This document shows positions 9,251 to 58,347 of a stretch of 64,000 nucleotides of DNA, piece after piece (position 1 is the first letter of the stretch; every line of letters begins with the position of its first letter). The position numbers and the translations under genes are program-made. The DNA is from Azolla caroliniana. Lineage: Eukaryota; Plantae; Polypodiophyta. The stretch spans positions 4,774,001 to 4,838,000 of the forward strand of contig JBHGNT010000018.1 in assembly GCA_043228905.1 (NCBI GenBank). Reading direction: 5' to 3'. The notes below the pieces were generated by a model, which saw nothing but the letters and a program-made list of their open reading frames with translations, was not told the DNA's origin and made no database searches.

Positions 9251-9294
9251 CGATGATGTTGGAGTATATGATAAATTATAATCCAAAGAATAAT

Positions 9295-9740
9295 GAGATA
9301 CACGTTTCAATTTCAATTAAACACTTATACTATATTTACGAGTTGTCTTTGTGCATGTACATGACAACAACATTCCCGGACATAACTAACATAGCCCAAA
9401 TAGTAGATCTCTCCATAATTATGACATATGTAGGGAACCTTGGGCCATTGACGTAGTAGACCAAACTAGGTGGTTCATGAACTCTTTCCTTTCACATAAA
9501 TATCATTATGTTGCATTGTGTGATGATCCACAAAAAAATAGTAGATGACGACACACGTTTCAATTTCTGTGAGACACATACTAAATTTACAATTTCTCTT
9601 GTGCATGCATAATACAATAACCTTCTGTGACATACTATCATAACCCAAATAGTAGATCTCTCTGTCATTATGTTGTATGTAAGGAATCTTGGGCTATTAA
9701 CTTAGTGGACCAAACAAGGTGGTTCATGAACTCTTAGTGC
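9295..9740. repeat. Imperfect direct duplication (~250-bp period)
   Basis: acacgtttcaattt...cccaaatagtagatctctc...ggtggttcatgaactct occurs at ~9299-9486 and ~9553-9735. Confidence 0.75.
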
Positions 9741-10199
9741 GTCCCATAAATATAATTATGTTATAAGTAACTTGTGAACAACCCTACATATCATACGTAA
9801 AATGAAGATAAGGTTCTCATGCAACTTTGTCTTAATGTGTGTATTTGTATGTGTGTGTATGAATATGCATATGCATTTGTGGATGTGTAAATCACACATA
9901 TTCATATGCAGATATTTTGGTTGTGGATGTATAGTTTTCAATGTACGAAATCTATGTTGTCAAGCAATTATGGAATAATACATGAATAGAAATGATTGAT
10001 GATAGTGTAAATGCACATGTTTTTTTCTTCCTTATGATTGTAAAAAGAAAATATTGAATCTGCCCATCAATGTCCTTTAAGAAGATGTGTTATATGTCCA
10101 TGTTTTTATCAAGAAAATGATGTTTTGCACTAATTGTTTGTTGAATCATTAGAATATCATGAGTGGAAAATGATACATTCTCTTAGTTGATGTCTTTCC

Positions 10200-11100: not shown

Positions 11101-12399
11101 TTTATCATCTATTACTATTCAATGCTATAACTTTTTGACACCTAGCCCAACTCTGCAGAAGATTCTTCTTAAAGAATGAAGGATAATGCTAATTGTGAGT
11201 GAACAAAATCAGGAAAAATTGTTGGAACTCAATCTTGGGCTTTTTTTGCATTTGGAGCATTCCTAAATTATTTCTTTCCATGAAAAGGAAAGACGCCATT
11301 GTTGGGAATGGGTTTGAAGTCTCCAATTATGAGACATTATGATATATCCAATTATAAAAATTTGGCAACATCTATTTTGTGTGTGGCGGACAAGGGTATT
11401 TTCGTTTAGAGGTTTCCCGTAGCACCTAGGCCAATAATTCATTTAGTACAGGGTTTTACCTACATCTCTACTGTGTTTAATGGGTTGCAAGACATAGGTA
11501 TTTTTGTTGAGAGCTTGCCTTTAGAGGTTTTCTTGTAGCACTTTGGTCAACAATTTTCAACCCTCACTATGTGTTAGAGAAACTCGGGTACCTATTAGTC
11601 TGCCTCAATTTAGTTGATCAATGCAATCAACTATGTTTAGGAAGCCAAAATTAGGTGATTTGATTCAATCACAAAACATTAATGTTTGGGATATTTACTT
11701 ATGACTGATCCTTTTCAAATATCCATAGCAACTTGGTTACCCATAATAAGTCTACCTGTATTTTGTTGGACGATGCAATCAACTATGTAGAAGAAACCAA
11801 ATCATAGGTGAACTTTAGTGCAATCCTTGAGCTTTGGTTGGTTGCTTCTTGAGACATCACATGGCTTTAGTGCCTTTTTCTAATACCTCGGCTACCACCC
11901 CATCCCATGGATATTAGCCCACTCCTTGCATGAGAATAAATTTGCATGATGCATGAGTAGTATTCGTAAATGGCTTTCTCATTTAGGTCTTGTTTGGGCA
12001 TGCATTACAATGGTGGGATTTTTTGTGTGCCTTACCGTTTGTGTGTTTGGGGTGTCTTTCTTTGAGTTGGGGTTGATGACTTGACAGAGGTCATAAATGT
12101 GTCCCAAGTCAGAGTTTGGAATTTGAAGCACATTGTGTTTAGGTCCAAGGTCTCAACTTGGGACTTAGGTATGAGTTTACTCACATGTTTCCCAATGCTA
12201 CCTTCTGTAGTCTTGGTTAGAGTTTTCTTTTTGAGCTTGTTGGAAGTCAGGTATAAATGACCTAAGCACTCGAATGATGTTATCATGTACTTACTCTTGT
12301 GATATTAATCTTCGTAAACTATACATGACTATCTCAAGGCTTTTGAGGATAGCACTTGTCCATATGAAGGGAGGTCTATCTAATGGCTTTTCTAATCAT

Positions 12400-14243
12400 A
12401 CAAAACAATTACCCAAGGCAGTATGTTGTAGGGCACTGGACCCCCATCTCTCTTCAACAACTATCCACAGTCATGGTGGCTTCTTGTTTGTAGACTAATT
12501 GAAATGGTGTATGACGTGTGGCTACTTTGTAAGAACTATGAGAAACCGATAGTGTTGCATGAAATTTTGGCCTCCAATATCTTGGTGTGGTGACTATTTT
12601 GGTGAGGACTTTATAGAGAATCTTGTTGGAGCTCTTTGCTTGCCCATTTTACCTAGGGTATTAAGGTATGCTCTTTCGATGGGTGACCATAAGCTCACCT
12701 AGAAGATGTGTCACAACTTTTTTAAGAAAATAAAAGCCATGTAACTTAATAGCACTAGGGTGAACCTAAAATGAACCATGTTTTTATATAGAAATTGGGT
12801 CGTAGTCCTAGCATCACTTTTTCTAGAAACCTTGTCTTCAACCCAATTCTTGCAATAACCACTTGCAATGATTATACGTAGGTTTTTACTTCTTGTTGGG
12901 CTAACTAGGCCAATGAAATCAATACCCCATTTCTCAATGGTTATTAAAACCATCCTAAGTGAGGGGTGGCTTATTGTGTTGACACTTGTCTCATCATTTG
13001 ACATATGCAAAATTGGGTCATAGTCCTAACATCACTTTTTCTACAAACCTTGTCTTCAACTCAATTCTTGCAATAACCACTCGCTAGATTATACACAGTT
13101 TTTTATTTGAAGTTGGGATAATTGGGCCAATGAAATCAATACCCATTCCTCAATGGTTGCCAAGCTACTACAAGATAGAGAGCATTAAAGTCATCCTTGA
13201 GGGGTGGCTAATTGTGTTGACACTCATCATATCGTTTGCCATATGCTTATGTATCCTTGAAAAGTGACATCCACCATAGCCCAAGTGAAGGATCTTCCTA
13301 GAGGTTACTCCTAAATGAAAATGTCCACCATGTCTTCCAAAATGTGCTTGTTCAATCATCGCAATCACGTCATGGTCCAAAACACATATGCAAAGGAAAT
13401 CATCTTTACCATGCCTATAAAAGTTACCCATTTTTGTTGTAAGCGGTTCACACTATTTCACCAATGAACAAGCAATTTCCTTGCTAAGTTGTGGCAAAAC
13501 CCATGAAGACCGTTTTGTTGATTAGATATAATAAGGTTTGGTGGTCCACATAGAAACAAAAGTGATAACAAGCGAATAATGCCAAAATTACATCGCCTTA
13601 TATATCATTGTCCATGCTTCGTGCTCCATCATCGAGTAATTTTGTGGAGTTGGGTTGGGTTGGGCTAGCAAATAGCATATGTAATAGGGAATCTAGCTTA
13701 CTATCCTCTATTTGAGCGAGGCTTGCCCAACAACAAAATCAAAGGCATCCTGTGGATATGGAATTCCTTATCCTAATTGGGTGACCTCAAAATGCATGTA
13801 CGTTCACTATACTTTGTATATTGCTCAATCTATTTAAGCCCATTAAAAAACACATAGAGAGGTCTTGCTTTCACTGCAAACATTTTGATAAACCTCCTAT
13901 AGTATTCCATATAGCCCATAAACCCTTGGAGTTGCTTTTTTTGGGTCAAGGATGGCATAACTAGTAGCTTCATCTGATGAAATATCTGACAGGAACACAC
14001 GCTCCCTAAGCACAATCGAGGCTAGGATCAAACACAGAAAACGGATAATGAACGCACGACACAATGAAGAGAAGAGTACACAGGATGTTTACGTGGAAAA
14101 CCCAAACTAGGGAAAAAACCACGGCAGCCCACAGGTTGCAAACTATCACTATGTTACAATGTACAACAGTAAAGCACCGAGGCAACAACCTCGAGCTTTC
14201 TATCTTCGCCACAGGCGGCGGTTACAACAGAGGCAACGACCTC

Positions 14244-18978: not shown

Positions 18979-21900
18979 CTATGTCAAACATGTTATAACA
19001 ACCTTACCGACTGTCAATCCACTCTGAAGACATCTTAATGCAGATTCAGCATTCTCAAACTCAAAAGTTTCCCCGACCAAAGGAGCATCGAGATTTAAAG
19101 AGGAGAGTTCCTGGAAGAGTACCTCTAGTTTTTCGGCTTTATCAAACATCCAGATCAAATTGAAAGCCTGCCATATGCATTGCAATATTAGTTTTAGTGG
19201 GGATGTTTTAATGATGAGGTATAGGAAAATAAAAAGAGAAATTTGGTAAGAGCTTACCATAACGCTTTTATTTTCACTCATCATTTTTAATGGATCCAAG
19301 ACAGGTCTCCTTATGTATTTCCATGCCAAAGCTAGCCAATTCGGAGAGTCACCAGATGGGGTCATGCTGGCCGCACCATACACTACATATCGTCCACCAC
19401 GTTGTCGTGAAGAAAACCGTCCATAGGCGGAATCGGCGCACCAAGGCGTGGGAACCGGTTCTTCACGCGCGCACGCTCCGAGTTGTACATAGAAACGAAT
19501 TGAGAGGATAATCGGCAGGAACGGGCCCTAACTCAAGTGGAGACAAAGACCGCGCGAACAGTCTTTTCGGTCGCGCGCGCGAACTGTACGAGTCGGCGGC
19601 GTAACTACGCGGATCCGTGAAAAACGGAGCGGATCCCTGTCCAAAAGGGACAGGGAATAAAGCTGACACGACGGCCTGTTCGTCGGCCTATATAAGGAGC
19701 GGGAAAGAGCTGTTGCAGGGATCTGGCGCGGAGAGGACGAAGTGCTGTCGGACCGTTTCTGGACGCTTCGCTCTCTCTGTTTCCTTCCTTCTTGAGCTCC
19801 AAAGCTTTCTGTGCAGGGTTCCGGGGAGGCTCGCGCTGTTTCGAGGAACGCCCGAGTGCTTCCGGCAGCACCTCCGACCTGCTACCCCCCCCCCATTTCC
19901 CCGTTTGTGCGTCGAAGCGAACAGGCATCGGCATCTGTTCGCCGGCCTGTTCGGTTGCAACCAACCTGTGCCCCATCGGGGGTTGTAGTCGTGTTAGCCA
20001 TTTTGTTAATACACATATTTAGTCATTCGCATCCGTCTGTGTCGGTGTCTGTTCGCGTTCTCCGTGCTGAAGGGCCGTGTCCCTGTGTATCCCCGGTCCT
20101 GCGTAGCCGGTTCTCTCTCTTTCTCCTCCCTCGCTTGCTCTTTGGTTCGAGACCCCCGCGGTCCCGCCTCTATTCCACACGCACTTGCGTAATATCTCGA
20201 CATCTTTGGTGAACCCGACGTGAAAGAGGCGGCAGAAGAGCAGAAGATGAGGGGGTCGGATCTCGCAGAGGCCATGGCTTCGGCCGTGGATCGGATCGTA
20301 AACGCGCGCGAGGGTACCGGTGCCCTCGACAGAGCTATTGAGGCGGTCGTCGGCACGATCGGCCGGTTCGATGGGAGGGATGCCACGAAGTATCTGGCGT
20401 CCTACGGTGCAGAAATGTTGATGCGGGACATTCCGGAAGAAAGGCGTCTTGCCGGTTTTCCCCGAGTGGCAATGCCGAGCATCCATGCGGAGGTGCTCGA
20501 GGTGCGGGCGGAGAGCCGTACCTGGGAGGAGTTCGAAGGTCGGCTCCTAGAGAAATACGGGCTGGACGACGCGCTCCGGCTTTCGAAGCGAAGGTTCATG
20601 GAATGGGTGGAGTTCCCGGGGAAGGGAAGAAACGCGTCGGCACTCCTCCGGGAGTTCGAGGAAAACTTTGCGCGCCTTTCGGCGCTCGACCGAACCATCC
20701 TGGACACGAGCCGGGTCTTGCTGTTTGTCAAGTCGGTCGACGAGCGGGATCGGGAGCAAGTGGGCCTCTTGCTGGAAACCGAAGACGGGCTCACTACCGA
20801 CTGGGCGGCTGTCAGGAAGGTCTGTGGCCGTTTCGACAAACGGCGAGAATGGGCGGATAACGGGGCGACTGGGTCGGGCTCGGTCGCAGCAAGGAAGCTC
20901 GAACCAGCGCCACAGGTGCGCAAGGAAGAGACCCGGGAGTGGTTGGAAACTGGTTCGGCTTCGACCGGCGTAGTCAGAGGCTCAACCGGAGGAGCGGCGC
21001 TGGAGGAATTGACGAAGGCGATAAAGGACCTCCAAATCGCGCAGGCCCGAAGGGAAGGAGGCGAACCGGCTCGTGACCGACGGCCGGCGGCAGGAAACAG
21101 GTGCATGTGGTGCGATGAAGTCGGCCACGTTCGGAAGGACTGCGGCGACTTCGCGGAGGCGCTGAGGGACCGGGTGGTGTACCTGTGGGAAGGACGGGTG
21201 CATGCCAGCGACACCCGAAGGGCCCTGAGCCGAAACGACGGAAAGGGTGGTATGAAAAGGTTGATGGAAGAGGCGGCGGCCCGACACGCGGAAACCGTCC
21301 ACTACTCGGCGTCGGCCGGCATTCGAGTCGGGGGCGGCGAGGCCCGAAAGGAAAGCAAAGCCGGATTCTGGCCGACGATGCTGGAAGGCCTTGCCGGTGC
21401 AGGGCTTAAAAGGGAGGAATCGGACCGTGCGGAGAAACGGGTACGGGAGATGACCGGGTGGAGCGACCCGGTCGAGGAAAGGACGGGCTTCGTGGAAGCC
21501 GCTTGCCGGAACTACGAGGCTCTGGTAGAAGAGAAGCGGGTGGGAAAACCCGGGACGACCGGGCCCTCACAACGATACGAGACCCGGTCCGGGCCACGAC
21601 GGGACGAAGCCGGCAGGGCCGGTACGCAAGATAAACCCCAGAAGGGCGGGTACCGTCTGGGGACGGAGATAGAAAGAACCACGGACTTACGAAAGGTCCT
21701 GGAGGAACGGATCCTCGACAGCAAGGTGGAGCTGTCGCTACGGGAGGTGCTTGGAATCGCCAAGAAGGAGTTCCACGACTCCATCGTGGACTTGGTGAAA
21801 CGGAAGAGGCTGTCAACGGAGACAGAACCGGAAAGACCGGTGGAAGTGCGGACGACGCACCTAGACGACATGGCGCTGGGAGACGAGTGGGCGGAAAGCC

Positions 21901-24900
21901 ACTATTCGAGACCGCACTGGGCCCGAGCGACCACGGAAACCCCGGTGAAGATCGGCGATGTCCAGGAACCGGTGATAGCTTTGGTGGACCACGGATCGGA
22001 GATCAATTTGATGTCCATGGACTTCTATAAGAAGGGCAAATGGCCGATCAACACCAAGCACGGGTGGAAAATAAGGGCAGCAACGCGCGCCACCGAGGAA
22101 CTGCACGGGGCATGTCCGAATGTGCGAGTCAAGATCGGCGACGTCGAGATTGACCAGCACTTCTTCGTGCAGGAGACGTCTTCGCATCCGGTCATACTGG
22201 GAGAGCCGTACATCACGGCGGCGCGAATGGAGACCAAGGTGCTGGACAATGGTTCGGCCTATGCGCGGGTCAAGAGCCAGGACGGCCGCCATTCGGTCCA
22301 GTTTTTGACGGTTAGGCCGAACCACGAGCGTAACCGCGACTCCCTCGGTTCCGATAACCGAGAGGATTTTTAGAGAGGGCTGCCAAGGCGTGGGGCCGCG
22401 ACAGTCCGGACACCCCGGGAAAACCCCACACCTGTACGATAAAACCGAAGAAACCTTGTACCATAGGTAGGGAATTTTTGTTCTCCGACAACGGAGCGTG
22501 TGCGATGGTCGGCATCGCCGGCCGAGAGAAAACAAAGACGGAGGCGAGACTTCGAGCGTGCGGAGTTCTCGGCCCGGACGAGGAAATCAACGGAGCCGTG
22601 GAGGCGGTCTCATTCGACGACACCTTGGGAATGCTTGGAAAGGTAGTCGAAGAAGGCCTTAACGACGACCGGACGATACCGGTGTGTTCCGAGGAGATGT
22701 ACGAAGTCATCGCGGACTTCGGTCGAGGGCTCGAGTCAGTTCGGACGGCCCACGTAAACACCAAGTACAAGACTGTGGACCGGAAGGTAAGGCCAGTAGC
22801 GGCACCCTTACCGGAGGACAGCGCGTCGAGAATCAAAGGGGTTGCATCAGACCCTAGTCTACGAGATCCGGCCTGCATAGGGCACACCTTCACTGACGAG
22901 ACGCTCCGAGAGCTCAAAATCGGTGGGGGCGGGTTCCTACTGCCGGCGGAGGAAGACCGGTTTCGGAGAATGCTCGGAAGGCACGGGAAAGCCTTCGCAT
23001 TCTCGCCGGAGGAAATCGGGTGCGTTGACCCGACGATCGTGGAGCCGATGGTGATATTCACGGTACCGCATGTACCATGGAATCTCAAGCCAATCCCGGT
23101 TCCGAGAGCTCACATCCCGAAGTTGATGGAGCTGCTGAGGCAGAAAGTTGATATGGGAATTCTCAAGCCGTCGAGCGCCCCATATTCGAATCGATGGTTT
23201 ACCGTACCGAAGAAAAACGGTTCGCTGCGCTTCATCCAGGACCTGCAGCCGGTCAATCGAGTGACCATTCGGAACGCAGGAATCGGACCGACCATAGACG
23301 AGTTCGCGGAGGCCTTCGCCGGAAGGTCAATTTACTCGGTCGGGGATCTATACTCAGGGTACGACCAGTTCCAGCTGGCCGTGGAGAGCAGAGACCTTAC
23401 GACGATGCGAACTCCCCTCGGCCTAGTTCGGATGTGTACACTGCCGCAAGGAGGGACCAACTCGGTGGCCCACATGGTGAATGCGATGAACAAGGTTCTG
23501 AGGGACTGTGTCCCGGACATTACCATGCCGTTTCTGGACGACATCCCGATCAAGGGATGCCCGGTGGAAGAAAAGGACGAGACGATCGGGCCGGACGGAT
23601 GCCGGCGATTCGTGGCGACGCACGTCGACGACTGCGAGAAGGTGCTGCAAAGGCTAGAGGATGCGAGACTCACCTTCTCCGGGGAGAAGTCGGCCTTCGG
23701 GCAGTCAGAAATCATGGTGGTCGGACACCTGTGCGGACCATATGGCCGGAAACCGTCTCCGGCGAAGGTAGAAGCCATCTCCGCGATGAAGCCCGACTGC
23801 AGCTCGGTCACGGAAGTACGGAGATTCCTGGGGGCATGCGCGTTCTACCACATATGGATCCCGCATTACGCACACGTCGTGGAGCCACTGTACGGGTTGC
23901 TGAAAAAGGGGCGAAGGTTCGAATGGCTAGACAAGCACGCGGAATCGGTCCGGAAGCTGAAAGAGGCCCTTGCAGCGGCACCGGCACTCCGGAAGGCGGT
24001 TTACGGGAAGGGTACCCCGGTATTCATAACGGTGGATACCAGTCCGACCGGGATCGGATGGGTCGTGAACCAGGAAGACGAGGACGGCAATCGGTTTCCG
24101 AACCGATTCGGCGCGAAAGTCCTCAGTGAACGGCAGCGAGGGTACGCCCAGGTTAAACGCGAACTCTGGGGTATTGTTTCGGCGGTTAAGGCCGACAAAG
24201 ACTACCTGATAGGGACGGAAGTGATCATCGAGACGGATTGCCTGCCGATTCTCGGTATGGTTTCCGGATGCGCGACTCCGGACCTGGCGATGCTCAGGTG
24301 GATAGCGTACATCAAGTCCCTGGACCCGGAAATACGACACATTTCCGGGAAAGACAACGCCATGGCCGACATGCTTTCGAGGGCGAGGTTCGACGACGAG
24401 GGCGGCATGGTTTCGGAAGACGAAGAAGTCGGCGTGGATTTCTTCGAGGCGGCATACATAACGACCGACGGGATGAGCACTCCGGCGCTTAACGAGTTCG
24501 ACGCGAGCAAGTACGACGGGGAATGGCTGCAGATCGGCGGGTTTTTGAAGACGATGACGCCCGATGCGTCATGGACGAAGGACGAGGCCAACCGGATCCG
24601 GAAGAAAGCATATCGATTCTTTCTCCGAGATGGGCATCTATGGAAGCACCCGAAGAAGAGGGACGGCGTCCCGCTCCGAGTGGTGGCGATGAAGGAAGAA
24701 CAGGAGGAACTGCTGACGGCCTACCACGACAGCCCTTGGGCTGGACACCGTGGAACATGGGCTACGTTTGAGAAACTAAAGGGGAAGTATTGGTGGCCGG
24801 GGCAGTACCGGGACGTGCATCGGTTCGTGACAACTTGCGGGAGCTGTCAGATGCACTCCATAGTCCGACATCGGGACGAGCTTCACCCCACGTACCCTCC

Positions 24901-27900
24901 GACCATCCACTTCAAATGGATGGTAGATCTGGTGACGATGCCAATGGGGGTAGGACAGATGCGGTACCTGGTCCTAGCGCGGGAGGATCTGACGAACCAA
25001 GTGGAAGGCCGGGCCCTTCCAAACAAAACGACCGCGGCCGTATGCCGGTTCCTAATCGAGGACGTGATATGCCGGTACGGGTGCGTCGGGAAGATCGTGG
25101 CTGACCGAGGGGAGTTGGACGCCGAAGAAGCCGCGGAGCTGTTCGACCGGCTGGGAGTCCAGCTCTCGCTCACCACTGCGTACAATCCGGAGGCGAATGG
25201 AAAGGTGGAGCGCGGACACGGACCGATCGTCAAGGCGTTGGTTCGGGCATGCGGAGGCCGAGCCGGTGACTGGCCGCGGCTGCTACCTTATGCTTTGTGG
25301 GCAGACCGGACCACGCACAGTTCGGTAACCGGGTACATGCCGACGGAGCTCATGTTCGGCCAGACGCCGATCATGCCAATTGAACGGACGATCTCCTCGT
25401 GGGCAACGGTCGACTGGAGGGACGAGATGAGCCGGGAGGAGTTGTTGGTCGCACGTATACGACAGCTCGAGCGGAGGCCGGAGGACGTGGCACTGGCTAC
25501 GGAGAAGCTCCGGGTGGCGAGGACAAAGAACAAAGCCCGGTTCGACCGAACGCACCGGCTACGACCGAAGAAAATCGAAGAAGGTGACTGGGTGCTCGTC
25601 TACGACAGCAGCCTCGACAACCAGCACCGAGCCACACGGAAGTTCGCACGAAGGTGGTTCGGGCCTTACGTGGTACGGAGCGCCAATGACAACGGGACAT
25701 ATCACCTGGCGGAACTTGACGGCACGAGAATGGCGATACCGGTTGCAGGGAAGCGGATCAAAGCGTTCAAGAAGCGACACGACGACGAGCCAGACCCGGC
25801 TCTCCTGGTCGGCAGTGACGAACGATCCGAAAATGAAGAAGAACCGACGGGCGAGGAATGAAGACGGGCCGGTTTTCTCCGTCCCAACTCTCTTGGCGCA
25901 TACCGGAGGATGCGCGGTTAGGTGGGGGCGGATGTCGTGAAGAAAACCGTCCATAGGCGGAATCGGCGCACCAAGGCGTGGGAACCGGTTCTTCACGCGC
26001 GCACGCTCCGAGTTGTACATAGAAACGAATTGAGAGGATAATCGGCAGGAACGGGCCCTAACTCAAGTGGAGACAAAGACCGCGCGAACAGTCTTTTCGG
26101 TCGCGCGCGCGAACTGTACGAGTCGGCGGCGTAACTACGCGGATCCGTGAAAAACGGAGCGGATCCCTGTCCAAAAGGGACAGGGAATAAAGCTGACACG
26201 ACGGCCTGTTCGTCGGCCTATATAAGGAGCGGGAAAGAGCTGTTGCAGGGATCTGGCGCGGAGAGGACGAAGTGCTGTCGGACCGTTTCTGGACGCTTCG
26301 CTCTCTCTGTTTCCTTCCTTCTTGAGCTCCAAAGCTTTCTGTGCAGGGTTCCGGGGAGGCTCGCGCTGTTTCGAGGAACGCCCGAGTGCTTCCGGCAGCA
26401 CCTCCGACCTGCTACCCCCCCCCCATTTCCCCGTTTGTGCGTCGAAGCGAACAGGCATCGGCATCTGTTCGCCGGCCTGTTCGGTTGCAACCAACCTGTG
26501 CCCCATCGGGGGTTGTAGTCGTGTTAGCCATTTTGTTAATACACATATTTAGTCATTCGCATCCGTCTGTGTCGGTGTCTGTTCGCGTTCTCCGTGCTGA
26601 AGGGCCGTGTCCCTGTGTATCCCCGGTCCTGCGTAGCCGGTTCTCTCTCTTTCTCCTCCCTCGCTTGCTCTTTGGTTCGAGACCCCCGCGGTCCCGCCTC
26701 TATTCCACACGCACTTGCGTAATATCTCGACAACGTGTTAACATCTCATAACCAGGGTAGAAGTAGTCTCCTTGTATAGCATCCAATACACAATCAAACC
26801 CTTCAATCCTAACCACACCAAGAAATTAAAATAATTATCAATAACCCTCTTCTTGAGCATAACACTGAACAAGCCCTGAATTTCCTAATATAATGGTCCT
26901 TGTTTGATTCCTTGCCATTAAAATGGGCAGTTTTAGCAAAAAGGATAAATGGTAAGAGGTTACATTTCTACACCTTCCTTTTTATTCAGAAATTCAAGTG
27001 TCAATAATAATCGTCATCAAAACATGATTATCAGGCTATATCAATATATAAGCCCCCTACTAAATCTTCCTTTTTATTCAGAAATTCAAGTGTCAACAAT
27101 CATCATCAAAACATGATTAGCAGACTATATCAATATATAAAACATTTAGCTCCCCACCCCCCTACTAAACAGTTACTCTGCCATATGGCATTTCAGCACC
27201 ACTGGCACTAAGTGTAAAGGAAATGATCTTGACTCTGTCAATGCAGACAATGTAATATACTAATGTATTATTTACATATTTATTTCTGGTAACAAATAAG
27301 ACAACAATAAAGATCCCTCCTCTGGAATCAAATATGAAAATATGTTGTTTTCTCATAGTCATTAGTAAATATATGCCTTAAGATTAGTACTTATATGGTC
27401 TCATTTTGTTTGATTATGTTCCTGTTTCCCTTTCCAGATATTTATTTTTTTCTTTAAATAAAATTCGTTCAGGCTTACGTACTACAGAGAAGTATTATTA
27501 ACTTACCCTCACTCCATCTACAAAATAAATATTTAACGACCTGTCTAGAGATGGTAATCAAAATAACTACTTTTACTTGAACTATTGAAACTCAATAAGT
27601 ATACAAAAACGTACCCCATTTGGGATAGGATTGAGGCCAACTGCTCCTTAAAAACTTTATTTCCACCTTTTCGAACAATTATACGCTCCTCTGGTAGGAA
27701 ATCAGAACCCCACCTATCCACTAGATGTTGAACCTGTTCACCTAGTAAGCACAGATAGTTAGTGACGTATACATCCATACATGCACACATGAATACATCC
27801 ACACAGCAAACATATTACAGAGATAATGTGTATTTATCTGTGTGTGTGAATATATACAAAAATAAACATATAGATAGGAGAGGTAAAACATGAGTGGATC

Positions 27901-30900
27901 AGACAACGAATTCTATCAAAAGATGATGCTGTATGACATCATGTCCTCTGTAATGAGTCACCTAGGGGATTACACCGTATCTTGGGCAATGTTACTATGC
28001 ATCCACTGATGCAGACCACAACTTTATGTGATAATCTGCATATCCCTGGGTGTCCAGAGAGCTAAATAGACTGCCTAATCAAGCAATATCCCTCTACAAG
28101 GTGTTACTTTCCACGGATGTCTCTTGCCATGGCCGTCTCAAGAAGTCTGAACTCTGACTTCGTCAGGCCCTGCTAATTCAAGAAAGATTCCAAATCTATG
28201 GATCTCTAGTAAAAACAGCCCCAAAAATCCCTGATCATAGAAATGCATGATCCGGGGGAGAATATCCCATCAGTGATGTGGAGAAAATGATCTCAATTGA
28301 AGGTCATCTTTGTAACTAGCTTCTGCGTATGTCTCGTCCTTATCCTCTTAGCCTCTAGCTGATCAAGCTTCTGCCTGATGACTTTGTTGATCTCTGAGTA
28401 AGAGAGAGAGAGAGAGAGAGAGTGTCTGTGTGTGTGTGATGTGTATGATTAAACCTCGAAATATACGTAAGATCATTGTCTGCCTTCAGACAATAAACTT
28501 TCATGGAACAGGCATGTATATGCTCCACTGGTCATTTCATTGTAATCTATTTTACTCTGTTTCAATTTATATCGATGTTTTACCTATGTAATATGAGGTA
28601 TTACAAGAAAAGACTGCATGTGCACATATATATATGTACGTATGTACATGTACATAATCTGTATAGAAGGAAGACATCTCATTTCAATTTCAATCATGCA
28701 AGTATCTATATTAAATCATGAGTTTTGACGTTCCACCACCAGCAGTACAGTAGGACCTTGGAAACATTGCCAACTGTTGCAATAACATTTATCTTGAGCT
28801 TTTTACAAATGCCTAACGCAAAAGAACCACAGCCTCCAGCAGCCGAATGCAGAAGAAGAGTTTGTCCTGCCTTCATGTTCCCTAACTCCCGAAGAGCATA
28901 TATCATGGTCAATCCCTGTCAATAAAACAAATTCAAGACCAAAGTTCAGAACAAAGTGACTGATGTAGAAAAATCCAAGAGTCAGACATCTAGCATGTTT
29001 TCCTTTAGACATTTTTAGGATATAACCTCAGGAGACAAAAGCATATACCTTTGTAAACTCCACATTTATGGGCCAAAAAATTGAGAAAGAAAGAAAGATA
29101 TATAACATCTTCTAAGAGGTCAAAAATGGCCTTTCAGACTGAATGAGATATTAGATCTTCTAGGGATGCAGACAGCTTGACCCATCTCAATCTCTAGCCT
29201 GTGTGACGATACTCTTAGCTAATTTATAGTACCCATGAGCTGTGGGACATTTCTATATAGGAATGACCTAGATTCACATTGTGATTTGTGCCTCTATTCA
29301 TGTCCATCAATCAGCTCAGCCAGTGTATCAAATGATACTCTCTGCAACAGTCATACAGGAGACCTATCCTTTGACTCATTATAAGTTCAGAAACTTGATA
29401 TTTGGTTGCCAAGAGGCTTGAAAGCTAAGGTCCGATATGCCAAAATGAGCAACAAAATGAATGAGCAACAAGAAAATATAATGCTTGCAAGGGGAGAGAA
29501 AGTAGAGAAGGAACTTAAAAGAGCACATCCTAGACAAACATGGAGAGTTAAGGCAACTGGCTGGTAAAGTAATGATTAGATCCAAAAATATACACATGAC
29601 ATCTACTGTTACGAGACATATTGCTACAAAAGTTCATACTTTTCATATGCAACCTCTGTTCTAACCAGAGGCAGATCTAGAAGGTCCTTTCTGCTAGATG
29701 TTAAAAGAGAAGAAATCAGACATCAGTAAACAATAAAATATTCCAACAACACAAGTTCCTGTTTGAACTGTAAAGATGCACATTAAACCTGAACAGGGAA
29801 GGCAGCTCCTTCTGCAAATGACCATCCATCTGGAACATCTCGCAGATAATTTATGTCCACATTGATTTGAGATGCATAAGCACCAAACCTAGTTACACCC
29901 ATTACTTTTCTACCCACATTTTCAGCATCAACTCCTTCACCAACAGCTTCAATTAGACCAGAAAACTGCAGAAAAGAGTGTACACAATCTTTCAACATTC
30001 TAACAGTAATTTAATAACAGAAATTTATCTGATGCTATTATACTTCATTCAGCCACACAACCATACACTAGACTTTACCTCTAGTCCAGGTGTGTAGCTC
30101 CCTTGAGGTGAGGCGGAGTATAAACCAAGACAAGTAAACACTGAAATTATGCAAATCCATATATAATAAGAGACCCGATTTGCTGTTAAACATCGTGCAA
30201 GAATCCCATTCTTTTTAACCTTTTTGAACACACTGAGGTCAGTAGACCTTGTGAAGTAAAACATATATTTAGCATTGGTACCAAACTCTCAAAAGTACAT
30301 GTGTGTATCTTAATTTATCTCTCTTAGATTTAATAGATAGATTGATTAATAGATAAATGGATGGATAGATACATTCATTCTGTACGATGATATACTTTTG
30401 TCATTAATCTAACATGACTTTTTAATAGTTTTAGTGCAAGATATTTTATTGTTCCTTCAAGAAACCTGGACCATTAATGAATCATTTAAAATAAGACAAA
30501 AAATATTTGAGACTTAAAAATACATATGTTAAAAATTAGCATCTCTTACAAGAAAGAATATCCATTTTAAAGTTTATGTGGTATGAGGGAGATTGTAATG
30601 AGAATGCCAATATGCAAACAAGGACACAACCAAAATCTATGGAGTTATGAGACCTCTTTGTTATTGAGAAATATGTCTAAATATATAGATTGATAGATAT
30701 GTAAGAAACTATAAAAAAATATACCATCAGCAAAGTTAAGTCCAATTGCTTTTACTGCAACCCTAGCTTCTCTCAATCCAGGGGCTGGTAACTTATCAGT
30801 GACCTACAACACAACTTCAAGTGCTGAGTTAACATGTGAAATAATTATGACTCAACCGATCATTTCCATATCTCTTTCTATATCTTTCTCCACTAACTTA

Positions 30901-33715
30901 ACATAGGAAGAATGAGAGATATAAATGTATTAACATCTTTTAAGAGGCCAAAATGACTTATCAGACCAAACAAGAGATTGCAATCAAATATCTTAAGTTT
31001 GAAGTTCCCTCCAAGCATAGATGGACTGAGCATGCTACATGCCTCTTAGAAGCAGAAAAGAGGGTAAAGTATGCATTTGAGTACATATGCATTGATGGAG
31101 AAATTAAATGTTGGATTCTTTTAAAATGCTTGTTTGACACATTGGTAACACCAGCCAATTGTAGACGGAATCAATGTGCAACTTATTGCTTAGAAGCAGG
31201 AAAGAGAGTTTCGTATGCATTAACAGATGCAATGGTTGAAAATTTGAATTTCTGGTCTCAAGAAATACCTCATTGACACACTATCGGCATTTGTGCTTCT
31301 CTATGGGGTTGAGGTATGGAGCTGTAGCATTCCCAAACTCTACTAAGGAGACTCGAAAAGTCCAAAAGCACTTTCATATTAAGTTTCTTCAAACAAGACA
31401 CAAACACCATACAGGCTTCTACTTCTTGCGACCAGATCACTTTCAAATGAGATCATAGCCATGGAAAGGGTCATTGTGTACATGCTTAAGGTTCAAAAAT
31501 ACCTTCACATCAACTTCCTAGGATTGCGTGGGAAGCAAGTAAAAACATTCAAAATATACAAGAACGCAAAATTTTGAATTCCAGATGGATGAAATATATG
31601 AAAAAATGGTTTGGACAATGGGATGCATCACATGCTACCTTTGTGAATTAAGTTTTTTTGCAACGCCAATGTATCACAGGTTGGGAAAGATTAGGAAGCT
31701 CATGTTTCACAGATATATTATATATGTTAGACCAAACTACAAAACCATCTCGAAATGGGGAAACCGCATTCATTGGTACATGCTTGAACATTGACAATGA
31801 TAAAATCTCTCTCTAGAGCGCATAACAAGGATGGATGGATTCATAAAGAGATCAAGGTACAAAGATACATGCATGCCCTATAGTGTAACAATGATTCACT
31901 TTTGGGTGCCATAGTTCATATTAACTTCCAAGGACAGTAATAAAATCTCTCTAGAGCTCATAACGAGGATGGATGGATTCATGAAGAGATCAAGGTATCA
32001 ACATATCTGCATGCTCTATAGTGCTTGCAAAGCAATAGACCAACTCAAAATTTCCTCCTACCTAGAGATCGAGGCAAGATGAACACTCACATACCTAGAG
32101 ATAAAAGATTCAACAAGTTATGTGAAGGAGAGATTTAAAGTGAGGAGGATTTTGTGTGTGGGTGCCTAACTTTCAACTACATCATAAATTATGCTACCCT
32201 CTACACAGACCCTACCACCATTCAACAAATGAAAAAGGCAGCTGACCCACGACAGTTTGGCCAAATGTTCCTCGAGCTTCAAAAGCATAGACAATCAGCC
32301 TTAAATTAGTATGCAGGATGCAACGAAAATCGCACAGCACTGATTTCGTCCATAGCTCTCTCCAATAACAACATGCCGAGGAGTCACCATAGCGGGAGCA
32401 GAGGAATGCCAAAACAACAAAGGAGACTGTAATTACTAGGGACAGCACATAAGCCATACAATCACCAAATTATGAACATAGTTGCTACCCACATCCAATC
32501 CTCAAAAAGGACACCCAAATTTACTTGTTAAACTTCATCGCCACTACTCTCATACATATTAGCTATGCACTTCATGCTTGTAAACCATCACAAAAATCAT
32601 TCCACCACATGTTATAGATCCTTAGAAAGCCCAGAACTTTTATCTTTGTTAGTATGGGTTACATGATTTCACCCATATTTATAACCATGATTTTGTCTCA
32701 TATGCAGATTTTTGTCTCTAGTAGAGATTAACGAGCATTGCAATTGAAAGTATCGATATACATTCAAAGAAAGAGAAGACTAAGAGAATTACCAGAAATT
32801 TCTCTACGCCCTAGAGAAAGCAAATGCATGTGGAGAAAGTAAATGAATGTGGAAATTTCGGAGAAACCTTAAGAGAAAACATGTTGAGAATTATAGTAGC
32901 TTAACTCTTATGGAATTCTGTGTCCATTGTAAGAACTTATATGAAATTCAAATGCACGAAAGACGAGGTGTTATGGTTATATTTCAAAACCCTTCCTACT
33001 CTACTTTTGTGGATGTATCCATAGGGCTTAAGAAATTGGCCATTTGGAAGGCAAGAGATCTTTGATATATTCCAGACTAAAATGCTCAAATGGACAGGAA
33101 AGGAAACACATGTTCGGATAAGTCATATGTTTAGTTGTGCATTGCAACATGCCATGCCTCATGATTGGAGTTTGAACATTGAGAGTCACTACTCAATTCC
33201 AAAAATATTACATAAAAATGTTTCTCTCTGTCTCTCTCACATCAATCGCATTTCCTACTTCTACAACCACATGTTTCTCTCTCTTTCGCAAATATTATGC
33301 AGAATAAGTAACAAGCACCTCCCAACAGCAACGTCCAAAAATCTTTAAGATTTTGCATCAACCACATCTCCTACTTCTCCAACCCATAGTTGAAACAAGT
33401 GGGTAAACCGAGAATGCAATATCTATTTTTCCTGCCAATTTAATAACCAAGAAGGCATTGATAACTCCCTTAACAGGGAGCTACCCCCCACTCTATTGGA
33501 TGGCAGTACCCACTCAAAGAAAGAGAGGGCAAGGAATTTTCTTGCCACATTATAGTCCATTGTTAAGCACGTGAAGAGCAAGGAATCGTATGTGGAGTAC
33601 TTACATTAATTGTTACCACGATGCATTAATCATAGTTCCCCCATGTGTTATACCCTCTTTCTCAATAAAATGTTATAGAATATATACCTTTGGTTGTGAT
33701 TGTAAGTAAGTCTGG

Positions 33716-33788
<73 letters not shown>

Positions 33789-34115
33789 CCTATAGATAGG
33801 AAGATAAGATAGAGAGGGAGATATGAACAAAAACTAGAAGGGTTACTTGGAAGCATACCAGTTGAAGTTCAGAAATTCTTCCTGTCTTGTTTGCCCTGTC
33901 ATATACACCAAAACCAAAACGAGTAATGAAGGAGAAGAAGAAGACTACAATGTGTATTTCCACCTCATACACAAAAAGTAAGGTTCTACACAGATACACA
34001 CAAACATACACATATATTTTAACACGTGCCTCCAAATCCTCCTACTCATCTCGTCCATCTTCTGAGGCGATGAAGCTGAAGGTGGTAAAGGGGCCGTGGC
34101 CATGGCCACAACCAT
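18979..34115 (-). CDS. MDR-family oxidoreductase (VAT-1/quinone oxidoreductase-like, ~374 aa), disrupted in this allele by a Gypsy insertion. Exons 34115-34030, 33895-33859, 30803-30725, 30140-30079, 29965-29789, 28915-28757, 27733-27615, 26808-26733+19398-19258, 19167-18979
   Basis: Spliced frame is continuous: [54 protein letters not shown] (Rossmann)..GFDCVLDA..GGRYVVYG..NKSVM-AFNLIW..TVGKVV. Removing the element plus one ACGT restores the frame. Confidence 0.88.
19403..20202 (+). repeat. 5' LTR (800 bp)
   Basis: Matches 25933-26732 with no difference seen by eye (the ORF track gives identical peptides at offset 6530); TATATAA at ~19689. Confidence 0.97.
20207..20224 (+). other. Primer-binding site complementary to the 3' end of cytosolic tRNA-Trp
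   Basis: TGGTGAACCCGACGTGAA is the reverse complement of TTCACGTCGGGTTCACCA, the plant tRNA-Trp(CCA) 3' end plus CCA as I recall it. It starts after a 4-nt spacer following the LTR. Confidence 0.85.
20247..22373 (+). CDS. gag: Retrotransposon Gag-protease ORF1
   Basis: Open frame from ATG 20247; CCHC knuckle CMWCDEVGHVRKDC; aspartic-protease-like ALVDHGSEINLM...VILGEPY near the C-terminus. Confidence 0.93.
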   Translation: MRGSDLAEAMASAVDRIVNAREGTGALDRAIEAVVGTIGRFDGRDATKYLASYGAEMLMRDIPEERRLAGFPRVAMPSIHAEVLEVRAESRTWEEFEGRLLEKYGLDDALRLSKRRFMEWVEFPGKGRNASALLREFEENFARLSALDRTILDTSRVLLFVKSVDERDREQVGLLLETEDGLTTDWAAVRKVCGRFDKRREWADNGATGSGSVAARKLEPAPQVRKEETREWLETGSASTGVVRGSTGGAALEELTKAIKDLQIAQARREGGEPARDRRPAAGNRCMWCDEVGHVRKDCGDFAEALRDRVVYLWEGRVHASDTRRALSRNDGKGGMKRLMEEAAARHAETVHYSASAGIRVGGGEARKESKAGFWPTMLEGLAGAGLKREESDRAEKRVREMTGWSDPVEERTGFVEAACRNYEALVEEKRVGKPGTTGPSQRYETRSGPRRDEAGRAGTQDKPQKGGYRLGTEIERTTDLRKVLEERILDSKVELSLREVLGIAKKEFHDSIVDLVKRKRLSTETEPERPVEVRTTHLDDMALGDEWAESHYSRPHWARATTETPVKIGDVQEPVIALVDHGSEINLMSMDFYKKGKWPINTKHGWKIRAATRATEELHGACPNVRVKIGDVEIDQHFFVQETSSHPVILGEPYITAARMETKVLDNGSAYARVKSQDGRHSVQFLTVRPNHERNRDSLGSDNREDF
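22364..22429 (+). promoter_or_regulatory. Predicted -1 ribosomal frameshift signal (G_GAT_TTT + 6-nt spacer + H-type pseudoknot)
   Basis: Heptamer lies directly before the ORF1 TAG, and the -1 frame is open into pol. Stem 1 pairs GGGCTG (22377-82) with CAGTCC (22402-07); stem 2 pairs GTGGGG (22390-95) with CCCCAC (22424-29). Confidence 0.75.
22370..25861 (+). CDS. pol: Retrotransposon Pol ORF2 (RT-RNase H-integrase), -1 frame
   Basis: RT (DLYSGYDQ, LPQG, FLDD), RNase H (VDTS, ELWG, ETDC, ADMLSR), integrase HHCC (HDSPWAGH..CGSC), DDE (VDL, ADRG, VERGH) and GPY; no stops from the slippery site to 25861. Confidence 0.95.
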   Translation, partial: LERAAKAWGRDSPDTPGKPHTCTIKPKKPCTIGREFLFSDNGACAMVGIAGREKTKTEARLRACGVLGPDEEINGAVEAVSFDDTLGMLGKVVEEGLNDDRTIPVCSEEMYEVIADFGRGLESVRTAHVNTKYKTVDRKVRPVAAPLPEDSASRIKGVASDPSLRDPACIGHTFTDETLRELKIGGGGFLLPAEEDRFRRMLGRHGKAFAFSPEEIGCVDPTIVEPMVIFTVPHVPWNLKPIPVPRAHIPKLMELLRQKVDMGILKPSSAPYSNRWFTVPKKNGSLRFIQDLQPVNRVTIRNAGIGPTIDEFAEAFAGRSIYSVGDLYSGYDQFQLAVESRDLTTMRTPLGLVRMCTLPQGGTNSVAHMVNAMNKVLRDCVPDITMPFLDDIPIKGCPVEEKDETIGPDGCRRFVATHVDDCEKVLQRLEDARLTFSGEKSAFGQSEIMVVGHLCGPYGRKPSPAKVEAISAMKPDCSSVTEVRRFLGACAFYHIWIPHYAHVVEPLYGLLKKGRRFEWLDKHAESVRKLKEALAAAPALRKAVYGKGTPVFITVDTSPTGIGWVVNQEDEDGNRFPNRFGAKVLSERQRGYAQVKRELWGIVSAVKADKDYLIGTEVIIETDCLPILGMVSGCATPDLAMLRWIAYIKSLDPEIRHISGKDNAMADMLSRARFDDEGGMVSEDEEVGVDFFEAAYITTDGMSTPALNEFDASKYDGEWLQIGGFLKTMTPDASWTKDEANRIRKKAYRFFLRDGHLWKHPKKRDGVPLRVVAMKEEQEELLTAYHDSPWAGHRGTWATFEKLKGKYWWPGQYRDVHRFVTTCGSCQMHSIVRHRDELHPTYPPTIHFKWMVDLVTMPMGVGQMRYLVLAREDLTNQVEGRALPNKTTAAVCRFLIEDVICRYGCVGKIVADRGELDAEEAAELFDRLGVQLSLTTAYNPEANGKVERGHGPIVKALVRACGGRAGDWPRLLPYALWADRTTHSSVTGYMPTELMFGQTPIMPIERTISSWATVDWRDEMSREELLVARIRQLERRPEDVALATEKLRVARTKNKARFDRTHRLRPKKIEEGDWVLVYDSSLDNQHRATRKFARRWFGPYVVRSANDNGTYHLAELDGTRMAIPVAGKRIKAFKKRHDDEPDPALLVGSDERSENEEEPTGEE
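25920..25932 (+). other. Polypurine tract
   Basis: AGGTGGGGGCGGA immediately 5' of the 3' LTR. Confidence 0.7.
25933..26732 (+). repeat. 3' LTR (800 bp)
   Basis: Direct repeat of 19403-20202. Confidence 0.97.
26975..27140. repeat. Intronic ~90-bp tandem duplication
   Basis: cttcctttttattcagaaattcaagtgtcaa...ctatatcaatatataa occurs twice. Confidence 0.8.
29000..29500 (-). mobile_element. Old RTE-like LINE 3' fragment in an MDR intron
   Basis: Minus strand SHRLEIEMG at ~29180-29210 resembles the RTE C-terminal motif. Confidence 0.4.
30950..31795 (+). mobile_element. RTE-like LINE fragment related to 15630-17645, in an MDR intron
   Basis: KYLKFEVPSKHRW..LEAEKR..GEIKCWIL matches the 16550-17250 region, with an internal partial duplication. 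Confidence 0.85.
33718..33785. repeat. (CT)n microsatellite; others at 14247-14322, 15547-15600, 17781-17817 and (GT)n 34335-34368
   Basis: Direct reading. Confidence 0.95.
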
Positions 34116-34332
34116 AGCAGTGTTTGAATAGGAGAAAAAACAAGAGTGAATGATGAAATAGCCCATTATGTATATCAATTGTGAGTGAGTGTGTGTGTGT
34201 TGATAGGGGGGGTAATTTTGGCGATATGCCAGAAATGTGAGGGACATCGGACTAAATAAAGAAAACTCGCTTCTTCGGGTTTCATGTATGTTTGTACCAT
34301 GTACAAGTGGCACTTCCACGAGCACCTTCTAG

Positions 34333-34371
<39 letters not shown>

Positions 34372-35633
34372 GGGGGTGGGGACTCGTGTCCCAAGAAAAC
34401 GGACGACCTCTCTTGTCCATAGGCAACTTCAGCTCTCATGTTTAAATTAGTCAAATGAGCACATTCAGACATGTGTATAAAATAAACCAAAGCACACTCT
34501 TGTGAAGTCATAGACCTTTTTCGTCATTTCTGTTGGTTCGTGGCCTTTTGTTGACACTCTGGCCCACTTGTACGCTCTATTAATGGGGCAAGATCTCATT
34601 CGGCATTCTCCACCAATGTGTGTTGGGCATACTTATATGTGGAAAGCATGCAAGGACTATTCTTTCCCAGCATTAACTTTTACATATTTGCCTCAAACGA
34701 AAAGGTAACTAAACACGTGTGTCATTTGCAAAGGTCTATTGCACAATTCATAATTGTACGTGTACATATCATTATGCAACCTTCTTTGTCAGTGGTTAAT
34801 GGATCCCAATTGCCATAACAAAACTTGGATTTAATAAAGACATTTTCTTAGGGTTACCACAACAGTTAGACGAATAAGCACTCTGCCCAAACCATGATAA
34901 AACATAAGATCATTGATCATATATTTTCCTGACAAGGATATTACATCACTAATCCCATCATTATTGACTATTAGATCACTCCAAATGAATGTAAATTTAA
35001 ACAATACACATACATTGCATTGTTACTTGGTAGATTTTCAAATGCTTTCCTATGGTGCGACTTCGTGGATTTTAGAAAAGCTTCTAACAGCCCCCAAGAA
35101 CAAAAATGTAGATAAACCAGCAACTCGGAAGAAGGTGATACGTAGCAAATTAAAAGTTTACAACTTACTCCCTCATATATGTTGATAATTTGTCACTACT
35201 CTACAAATGCTGTAAAATCTTTTCAAAACTTGTCTCATAGAAAGGAAACTCATGTTCAAACTGATGCCACCATTCTTAGGGTAGTACCTTTGAATCAAAC
35301 TTGGAAGGGTTCTGAAATCAATATCTCATTCTTCGTTTGCATTCCAAATGATTTATACCTTTGCCAGCTACTGAAATCCCAGAGAACAGATATCATCTAC
35401 AGATTTCGGAAAGTATCATTACATTTCCTTCTTTGTAAACAATATAGTGCCAAGCTAGGCATAAGAACGTACACAATGATATTCACCTCAAATGTATGTA
35501 CAGAATGATCCTGACCCAGCTAATATGATAGCCAAGAAAGGCACCAAAAACCTTGAAGCAAAGACTCTAAATGCAAACAAAACCCAATACCACCAAATTG
35601 TGGATGCTTTCAGAAGTTGTTGAAATGAATCTT

Positions 35634-38620: not shown

Positions 38621-38959
38621 GTGTTGAAAGCAATATGAATGTGGCAATTTTATGTGTTGGTGGGTGTAAATTAAAACTCACAGCTTGGTGGAGTTTTCCT
38701 CTTGCATATTGGTGATTCAACAAATTGTACTACCCATGTCGAAGTGACACCACTCAATTGTGATACCTTTTTGCGTCGAAACCTATTTGGGGCATATTCG
38801 AGATTACTGTGTAGAACTATGTGATATTCAAAGACCGAGACATTTATCTGATTGAAATAAAAAAGGATGTCAACAGAGGTACCTAATACATTGATTCCCC
38901 CACCACCTCCACGTTAGCGTGAATCGATTAGGGCATGTGGGGGAGAGAGAGAGAGAGAG

Positions 38960-58070: not shown

Positions 58071-58347
58071 GCCAGGCTATGCTTTATATACATGAGGCAT
58101 CAGTGCTCGTCTATGCAGAATGGTGATGAGAAAAACATGGCTAAAACCCTAAATCTTTAACCTGGTATGTTATGAACGTCATGAGTAGAACAAGGGAAAA
58201 AAATGGGTGATGGACAGCAGGATCTCAACCAAGAAGAAGGAGAAGAAGAAGAAGAAGAGGAAGAAAAGAAATCAGAAGAAGGTTTTGTACAGAATATTTA
58301 GCATGGCTACTCTGATGATGTTGCATCGGGCAGCCTCGCTCCCCTAG

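What the first reader, a model, noticed from the sequence alone, without database searches (positions are those of the whole stretch)
19403..26732. Intact Gypsy element with an atypical package: tRNA-Trp priming, 4-bp TSD, Gag-PR in one frame, -1 frameshift into RT-RH-IN
Seen: 800-bp LTRs with no visible difference, both ORFs open, a 4-bp ACGT TSD (independently supported because removing the element plus 4 bp restores the host exon frame), the protease at the end of ORF1, an FLDD RT motif and no chromodomain after GPY. Known: the common angiosperm Gypsy lineages (chromoviruses, Athila, Tat/Ogre) usually make 5-bp TSDs and prime with Met-i, Asp, Arg or Lys tRNAs, while 4-bp TSDs occur in some fungal elements such as Ylt1. 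Inference: a currently or very recently active member of a poorly described, fungal-like Gypsy lineage in a land plant.
Basis: partly seen in the sequence, partly recalled or inferred. Interest (0 to 1): 0.82.

Follow-up and report, generated by a model that had tools for sequence, protein, structure and literature searches.

The report
Young Phygy-type retrotransposon with frameshift pseudoknot
This is an intact, freshly inserted jumping gene that likely belongs to the known moss-type 'Phygy' group, whose 4-base target and tryptophan-tRNA primer are already on record; the new part is a conserved slippery site with a predicted RNA pseudoknot that would let ribosomes shift frame to make its enzymes.

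Summary
In detail: a 7,330-bp Ty3/gypsy element with identical 800-bp LTRs, two open frames, a 4-bp ACGT duplication and no chromodomain. Three of four laid DNA runs carry the empty site, so the insertion is recent and polymorphic; it splits an exon of a host quinone-reductase-like gene. The package is not atypical, however. REXdb's Phygy clade is defined in print with 4-bp NCGN duplications (100%), tRNA-Trp priming (81%) and no extra domain. The protease region groups with Physcomitrium, Riccia and Adiantum elements, and other copies also follow NCGN. Membership rests on traits and the protease tree, because no REXdb or Physcomitrium RT was in hand. What is added: REXdb left Phygy's frame organisation undetermined, whereas 32 of 39 related loci end ORF1 at G GAU UUU plus stop, followed by a covarying stem and a predicted H-type pseudoknot. 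The RT's next relatives include Chara elements and fungal Ylt1-like elements, but a transfer from fungi is not shown. Verdict: new member of a known kind, modest interest.

The parts
19399..19402 (.). left copy of the 4-bp target-site duplication (ACGT, fits NCGN)
   Evidence: empty-site joint
19403..20202 (+). 5' LTR, 800 bp, TG...CA; TATA-like word at 19689
20207..20224 (+). primer-binding site, likely for tRNA-Trp, 4 nt after the LTR
   Evidence: sequence; Rfam RSV_PBS weak match, 16 of 18 letters; exact complement of a CCA-ended plant small RNA; present in 27 of 30 loci with a Gag match
20247..22373 (+). ORF1, Gag-protease, 708 aa: CCHC knuckle at 21102, DUF4100, aspartyl protease motif (DHG) at 21981
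22364..22370 (+). predicted -1 slippery heptamer G GAU UUU, directly before the ORF1 stop (22371-22373)
   Evidence: invariant in 26 of 26 aligned rows; 32 of 39 loci with both PR and RT matches end ORF1 this way
22377..22429 (+). predicted H-type pseudoknot: stem 1 22377-22384 with 22400-22407; stem 2 22390-22395 with 22424-22429
   Evidence: stem 1 covariation; stem 2 pairing against shuffles
22358..25861 (+). ORF2 (-1 frame): about 230-aa pre-RT stretch, RT (FLDD 23531), RNase H, integrase (HHCC 24725, DDE, GPY 25661); no aRH, no chromodomain
25920..25932 (+). polypurine tract abutting the 3' LTR
   Evidence: sequence; same G-rich tract in related loci
25933..26732 (+). 3' LTR, identical to the 5' LTR
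26733..26736 (.). right copy of the target-site duplication (ACGT)
26733..26808 (-). 5' part of the interrupted host exon (MDR-family, VAT-1-like quinone oxidoreductase); splice boundary inferred by eye
   Evidence: neighbouring exons match VAT-1-like and quinone oxidoreductase structures
19258..19402 (-). 3' part of the interrupted host exon; splice boundary inferred by eye

Best explanation
It is an intact, very recently inserted Ty3/gypsy retrotransposon, likely a member of the Phygy clade of seed-free plants, which likely primes reverse transcription with tRNA-Trp, is predicted to make its RT-RNase H-integrase protein by a -1 ribosomal frameshift at G GAU UUU stimulated by a predicted pseudoknot, and inserts with a 4-bp duplication that likely favours CG-centred (NCGN) targets. 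Shown: structure, open frames, 4-bp TSD, empty site in other individuals, conservation of the slippery site and of stem 1, NCGN bias of flanks. Inferred: most ribosomes stop at the ORF1 stop and give Gag-PR; a minority slip back one base and give Gag-PR-RT-RH-IN, which sets the capsid-to-enzyme ratio; the protease then cuts the polyproteins; the second strand starts at the PPT; integrase makes a 4-base staggered cut. This copy landed antisense in an exon of a host MDR-family gene and likely knocks out that allele.
For: REXdb table: Phygy, 186 elements, TSD 4 bp 100% (NCGN), tRNA-Trp 81%, no extra domain, frame organisation ND. Empty site in X1, X3, X13. Loose 5' flanks of other copies give a majority line ending in ACGT in 2 of 3 runs (16 and 18 contigs, agreement 0.43-0.44). 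8 of 10 5' flanks upstream of a PBS in related loci are NCGN (13 of 29 raw rows), against CG dinucleotide frequencies of 0.054 in the loci and 0.015 in the host flanks. 18 Physcomitrium proteins are among the 120 listed ORF1 hits; the DUF4100-protease tree holds Physcomitrium, Riccia, Adiantum and this family on one side, SH-aLRT 99. RT-RH nests with Riccia elements at 65-69% identity. Stem 1: 98.1% of cells paired, 4 of 8 pairs with changes on both sides, 0/500 shuffles for score. Stem 2: mean 5.0 pairs against 3.8 +/- 0.17, 0/1000. 65 of 93 unnamed ORF1 homologues end in Asp-Phe-stop. G_GAU_UUU is a known shift site in pea enation mosaic virus (PMC5009743).
Against: No REXdb Phygy sequence and no Physcomitrium RT could be obtained, so the defining RT/RH/INT test is open; that the Physcomitrium proteins are Phygy is inferred by elimination. 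Length 7,330 bp lies below the Phygy range of 7,656-9,968 (the paper calls size of little use for classification). The protease tree has long outgroup branches and carries warnings. Minimum-energy folding of the window's own stretch does not beat shuffles (z -0.12; the program cannot fold pseudoknots), and one stem-1 pair is mismatched in this copy. Stem 2 pairs about as well across families as within them, so it shows conservation, not covariation; the region also codes for protein. The 80 loci come from few related assemblies, and shuffles ignore kinship. X13 showed no flank row at the LTR start. Two of 10 flanks were not NCGN. tRNA-Trp is indirect: the Rfam match is below the family threshold. 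Frameshifting was not measured.
Confidence: 0.82

Rival explanations
1. A distinct, unnamed lineage that is sister to Phygy and shares its traits by descent, so it works like Phygy but would need its own name.
For: Only 53-58% identity to Physcomitrium proteins over the DUF4100-protease region; the family forms its own 16-row group; shorter than any REXdb Phygy; REXdb described Phygy as specific to P. patens.
Against: Same TSD length, same NCGN motif, same primer; Physcomitrium elements sit among Riccia and Adiantum elements and not apart from them; Phygy has since been annotated in a liverwort (PMC12885004).
Confidence: 0.1
2. A fungal Ylt1-like element that entered this plant lineage by a fairly recent horizontal transfer.
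For: GC 60% and CpG o/e 1.20 against 37% and 0.44 in the host flanks; fungal and Ylt1 RTs share the PQGxxNS and F[LIV]DD motifs and one long branch with it.
Against: Named fungal RT-RH are only 35-38% identical against 65-69% for Riccia; relatives exist in moss, liverwort and fern; a tree that joins Chara and land-plant elements is not rejected (AU p 0.49).
Confidence: 0.04
3. Pol is not made by frameshifting but from a spliced transcript or by re-initiation, as in Ogre; the conserved motif has another role such as packaging.
For: [quoted passage not shown]
Against: The frames overlap with no spacer; the heptamer is invariant, in the right register and 6 nt before a covarying stem; RT lies in the -1 frame in 36 of 38 same-strand loci.
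Confidence: 0.06

Closest known systems
Phygy clade, non-chromovirus Ty3/gypsy (REXdb; Neumann et al. 2019, PMC6317226)
   Same: 4-bp TSD, NCGN target motif, tRNA-Trp PBS, no chromodomain, no aRH, no extra ORF, coding region fills the interior; homologous Gag-PR in Physcomitrium
   Different: 7.3 kb against 7.7-10.0 kb; host is not P. patens; intact frames reveal GAG-PROT overlapping RT-RH-INT, which REXdb lists as not determined
TatI (REXdb, club-mosses)
   Same: 4-bp TSD, tRNA-Trp
   Different: [quoted passage not shown]
Selgy (REXdb, Selaginella)
   Same: 4-bp TSD, no extra domain, overlapping frames
   Different: tRNA-Ala primer, 4.4-6.7 kb, overlap lies between GAG and PROT
Ylt1 clade of fungi (Yarrowia Ylt1; PMC2864245, PMC3248453)
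   Same: related RT-RH-IN with shared motif variants; no chromodomain
   Different: 35% RT-RH identity; the Yarrowia protein is one 2,621-aa frame; not sister to this element in either tree
Alpharetroviruses (Rous sarcoma virus), as a functional analogue
   Same: PBS resemblance; tRNA-Trp priming, Gag-PR in one frame and a -1 shift into RT-IN (recalled)
   Different: no envelope gene; unrelated Metaviridae-type RT; the likeness is convergent

Membership tests
Phygy (REXdb) | RT, RH and INT group with REXdb Phygy references | tested here: inconclusive
   REXdb FASTA too large to read; no Physcomitrium RT found. Substitute: DUF4100-protease tree groups it with Physcomitrium proteins, SH-aLRT 99, with long-branch warnings; pre-RT stretch 56-60% identical to Physcomitrium proteins.
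Phygy (REXdb) | 4-bp TSD | tested here: met
Phygy (REXdb) | NCGN target motif | tested here: met
   ACGT here; majority flank line of other copies ends in ACGT in 2 of 3 runs; 8 of 10 PBS-anchored 5' flanks
Phygy (REXdb) | PBS for tRNA-Trp | tested here: met
   Indirect: 16 of 18 letters match the Rfam RSV PBS model, E 0.026, below gathering (that RSV uses tRNA-Trp is recalled); 10 letters shared with a Drosophila tRF-Trp primer; exact complement of a CCA-ended plant small RNA. No host tRNA gene seen.
Phygy (REXdb) | no chromodomain, no aRH, no extra ORF | tested here: met
TatI (REXdb) | [quoted passage not shown] | tested here: not met
   no Pfam match in the 234-aa pre-RT stretch at E<=1; one RNase H only
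Selgy (REXdb) | tRNA-Ala PBS; GAG overlapping PROT-RT-RH-INT | tested here: not met
   protease lies in ORF1; PBS resembles a tRNA-Trp site
Tcn1 chromoviruses | chromodomain, 5-bp TSD, self-priming | tested here: not met
Ylt1 clade (fungi) | RT-IN nests inside the Ylt1 clade | tested here: inconclusive
   One branch (100) holds this family, the Yarrowia protein, three other fungal and two Chara elements against five unnamed canonical-motif rows; the order inside is unresolved; no labelled Athila/Tat rows
-1 programmed ribosomal frameshift signal | X XXY YYZ-type heptamer in register, 5-9 nt spacer, downstream structure | tested here: met
   pattern recalled, heptamer known from PMC5009743
-1 programmed ribosomal frameshift signal | measured frameshift product | not testable with these tools
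   needs a reporter assay or ribosome profiling

The most novel reading that the evidence does not exclude
Phygy is not a moss-specific sister of Athila/Tat but the seed-free-plant branch of the fungal Ylt1 radiation, spread through mosses, liverworts and ferns, and it is a plant retrotransposon lineage with a retrovirus-like, pseudoknot-driven -1 frameshift between protease and RT and an integrase that seeks CG dinucleotides in a CG-depleted genome.
Probability: 0.45. Interest if true: 0.52.

Novelty: new member of a known kind. Interest (0 to 1): 0.32.

Why it matters
As a classification it is ordinary: the traits that looked odd are the published signature of Phygy. Its value is as an intact, very young copy of a clade known mostly from decayed elements. 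It fills REXdb's 'not determined' entry with a specific, testable frameshift signal; a 2016 review reported only +1 arrangements for plant elements in a 2003 survey (PMC5009743), although REXdb lists overlapping frames without direction for other clades. It also offers a handle on a question REXdb left open, how plant non-chromoviruses relate to non-plant lineages, and on the only sequence-selective plant LTR integrase noted there. The PBS is the exact complement of the abundant plant small RNA called miR894, whose role in silencing elements was left open in PMC5846777.

Tried and rejected
No whole genome is held, so genomic copies could not be listed. No RNA holder listed; this is no evidence on expression. 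No tRNA gene in the window. The PBS complement in viral contigs (31 loci, ARAGORN 0 of 31) and in prokaryote genomes (120 loci, ARAGORN 0 of 120) gave chance matches only. Plain folding of the frameshift region was no better than shuffles. The search with the host P450 exon gave 2 unnamed hits, so the host lineage was not fixed; 'fern' comes from earlier unchecked notes. The Atlas gave results only for a Riccia homologue (best clusters fungal or chordate by few records; a lead only). The sigma-70 promoter scan is not relevant to a plant LTR. The element has no other copy or solo LTR in the window. Summed contig depth over the element (thousands of times the flanks) was not used as a copy number. 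Sequence and word look-ups in earlier findings were blank. The 2003 recoding survey and the original Ylt1 paper were not held, so Ylt1's 4-bp TSD is unverified. Paper search returned only irrelevant listings. A recent fungal transfer was considered and rejected. The exon-frame argument for 4 bp was downgraded because 1 and 7 bp also restore the frame.
Full report
Observation. The element spans 19403-26732 (7,330 bp). The two LTRs are 800 bp, identical at every base and end in TG...CA. ACGT lies on both sides; a 5-bp duplication does not fit. ORF1 (20247-22373, 708 aa) carries a CCHC knuckle, a DUF4100 match and, at its end, an aspartyl-protease motif with weak Pfam support. ORF2 (22358-25861) is in the -1 frame and carries RT (FLDD), RNase H and integrase with HHCC, DDE and GPY; Pfam finds nothing in the 234 aa before RT or in the last 73 aa. 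An 18-nt PBS starts 4 nt after the 5' LTR and a G-rich tract abuts the 3' LTR.

Age and host site. Contigs of 3 of 4 laid DNA runs (X1 and X3 of organism A, X13 of organism C) join 19398 to 26733 with 4 letters fitting both sides, at about the depth of the flanks; X2 shows no such joint. This confirms the 4-bp duplication and shows that the insertion is absent from other individuals. Zero differences in 800 bp give an upper bound near 0.2 million years at the rate of 9e-9 quoted in PMC7466625. The site is an exon of a minus-strand MDR-family gene whose other exons match VAT-1-like and quinone-oxidoreductase structures. Removing the element plus 4 bp restores the frame, but so do 1 and 7 bp. 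The host carries P450, ORC3 and pectinesterase genes, so it is a land plant; earlier unchecked notes call it a likely fern, which my one search could not test. 22,697 to 37,405 contigs per run were laid on the region, nearly all on the element, so the family is abundant; this is not a copy number.

What is known. Neumann et al. 2019 (PMC6317226; I read passages, sections 13 and 15, Additional files 2 and 5 in full; Additional files 1 and 3 were too large and would bear directly on membership) list Phygy as 186 elements with 4-bp TSDs in 100%, an NCGN target motif, tRNA-Trp in 81%, no extra domain, 7,656-9,968 bp and undetermined frame organisation. Passages of PMC6911290 repeat the 4-bp TSD and PMC12885004 annotates Phygy in a liverwort. 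TatI also has 4 bp and tRNA-Trp but carries aRH; Selgy uses tRNA-Ala; Tcn1 has a chromodomain.

Target motif. ACGT fits NCGN. Contigs that enter the LTR from other genomic sites give a majority line ending in ACGT in X1 (16 contigs) and X3 (18), with overall agreement of 0.43-0.44 as expected of mixed flanks; X13 showed no such row among those listed. In the 80 related loci, 13 of 29 raw LTR-start rows are preceded by NCGN; many of the rest are reversed LTR ends or internal words. Of the 10 starts upstream of a PBS on the element strand, which I picked by hand, 8 are NCGN, against a CG frequency of 0.054.

Primer. The same PBS occurs in 27 of 80 loci, and in 27 of the 30 with a Gag match, 1-8 nt from the LTR. 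The best Rfam match in the element is the Rous sarcoma virus PBS model, over the PBS, 16 of 18 letters, E 0.026 on the short stretch and below the family threshold; that this virus uses tRNA-Trp is recalled. The exact complement is the most abundant 'miR894' form, ending in CCA, in PMC5846777 (passages), and 10 letters agree with a Drosophila tRF-Trp primer (PMC10094720, one passage). No host tRNA gene was seen.

Relatives. Pol hits are unnamed metagenome proteins up to 82% identity; among the 120 listed of 279, the named ones are Riccia (up to 65% over the whole region) and one Adiantum protein. ORF1 hits include 18 Physcomitrium, 5 Adiantum and 4 Riccia proteins among 120 listed of 233. The Physcomitrium proteins hold Gag-PR and the pre-RT stretch but no RT. 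A quick IQ-TREE tree of the DUF4100-protease region (58 rows chosen by me; two fungal rows gave no alignment) puts all plant rows and this family on one side at 99, with long-branch warnings. RT and RT-RH trees (114 rows after thinning 231; 53 chosen rows) nest the element with Riccia elements. The next tier, 32-41% identical in RT-RH, includes Chara, Tilletia, Phenoliferia, Zalerion and a multi-copy 2,621-aa Yarrowia protein that I take to be Ylt1 by size and copy number. All share one branch at 100 against unnamed rows with canonical motifs. The order inside is unresolved, and a clade of Chara plus land-plant rows is not rejected (AU p 0.49). No labelled Athila or Tat row was available. Passages of PMC2864245 and PMC3248453 describe the Ylt1 clade from fungi only.

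Frameshift signal. Of 39 loci with both protease and RT matches, 32 end ORF1 at GGATTTT plus stop; 6 have earlier stops (5 of them keep the motif) and 1 is rearranged; RT is in the -1 frame in 36 of 38 same-strand loci. In 26 distinct rows the heptamer is invariant. Six bases later an 8-bp stem is paired in 98.1% of cells, with changes on both sides at 4 pairs (0/500 shuffles for score, 2/500 for pairs; slid controls 18-44%). The loop pairs with a downstream C-run (mean 5.0 pairs against 3.8, 0/1000), but about as well across families as within them, so stem 2 is conserved rather than covarying. Plain folding of this copy is not better than shuffles. More widely, 65 of 93 unnamed ORF1 homologues end in Asp-Phe-stop, 18 more end a few residues later, and three Physcomitrium proteins end in that later way. 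G_GAU_UUU is a known viral shift site, and the same review says that plant elements with separate frames in a 2003 survey were +1 (PMC5009743, passages from the first 300,000 of 449,034 characters). Searches listed no description of such a signal in Phygy; I read listings only for most hits, and subscription journals are missing. The loci come from few related assemblies, so counts overstate independence.

Mechanism and verdict. Most likely the LTR drives one transcript; tRNA-Trp primes the first strand and the PPT the second; Gag-PR is the main product and a -1 slip gives the full polyprotein; integrase cuts with a 4-base stagger and favours CG-centred sites. Structure, TSD, polymorphism and conservation are shown; priming, frameshifting, expression and gene knock-out are inferred. 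It works like a Phygy element and is likely one, with the defining RT test still open. It is a new member of a known kind, with one useful addition, the frameshift signal.

Noticed in passing
window:21981-22001: The protease active-site motif is D-H-G rather than the usual D-T/S-G (usual form recalled); Physcomitrium homologues have the same D-H-G.
   Followed up: partly
window:20207-20224: The PBS is the exact complement of the abundant plant small RNA annotated as miR894 (PMC5846777), which is likely a tRNA-Trp 3' fragment; a possible silencing link.
   Followed up: partly
window:19403-26732: Element GC 60% and CpG o/e 1.20 against host flanks 37% and 0.44; a CG-seeking element in a CG-depleted genome may favour exons or other GC-rich elements.
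   Followed up: no
run X2 on window:18752-19054 and 27414-27703: Organism B holds two flank haplotypes at equal depth, one like the window and one like organism C, which suggests a hybrid or allopolyploid.
   Followed up: no
L004:977 and 7495; L078:28 and 3808: Two PBS-bearing LTR ends in one contig: tandem or nested copies, or assembly collapse.
   Followed up: no
window:22400-23050: About 230 aa between the frameshift and RT have no Pfam match; the last 110 aa are conserved (56-60% to Physcomitrium proteins).
   Followed up: partly
window:15900-17650, 31000-31800, 62900-64000, 38900-41600, 12000-14000: Decayed LINE-like RT and endonuclease pieces and what looks like a decayed second Gypsy element (by eye).
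   Followed up: no
window:57000-58110 and 48312-49013: Tandem arrays (about 104-bp and 117-bp periods); the first has extreme GC skew (0.69).
   Followed up: no
window:515-2496, 42400-52500, 58300-61100: Host genes on the minus strand: cytochrome P450, ORC3, pectinesterase (extents by eye).
   Followed up: partly
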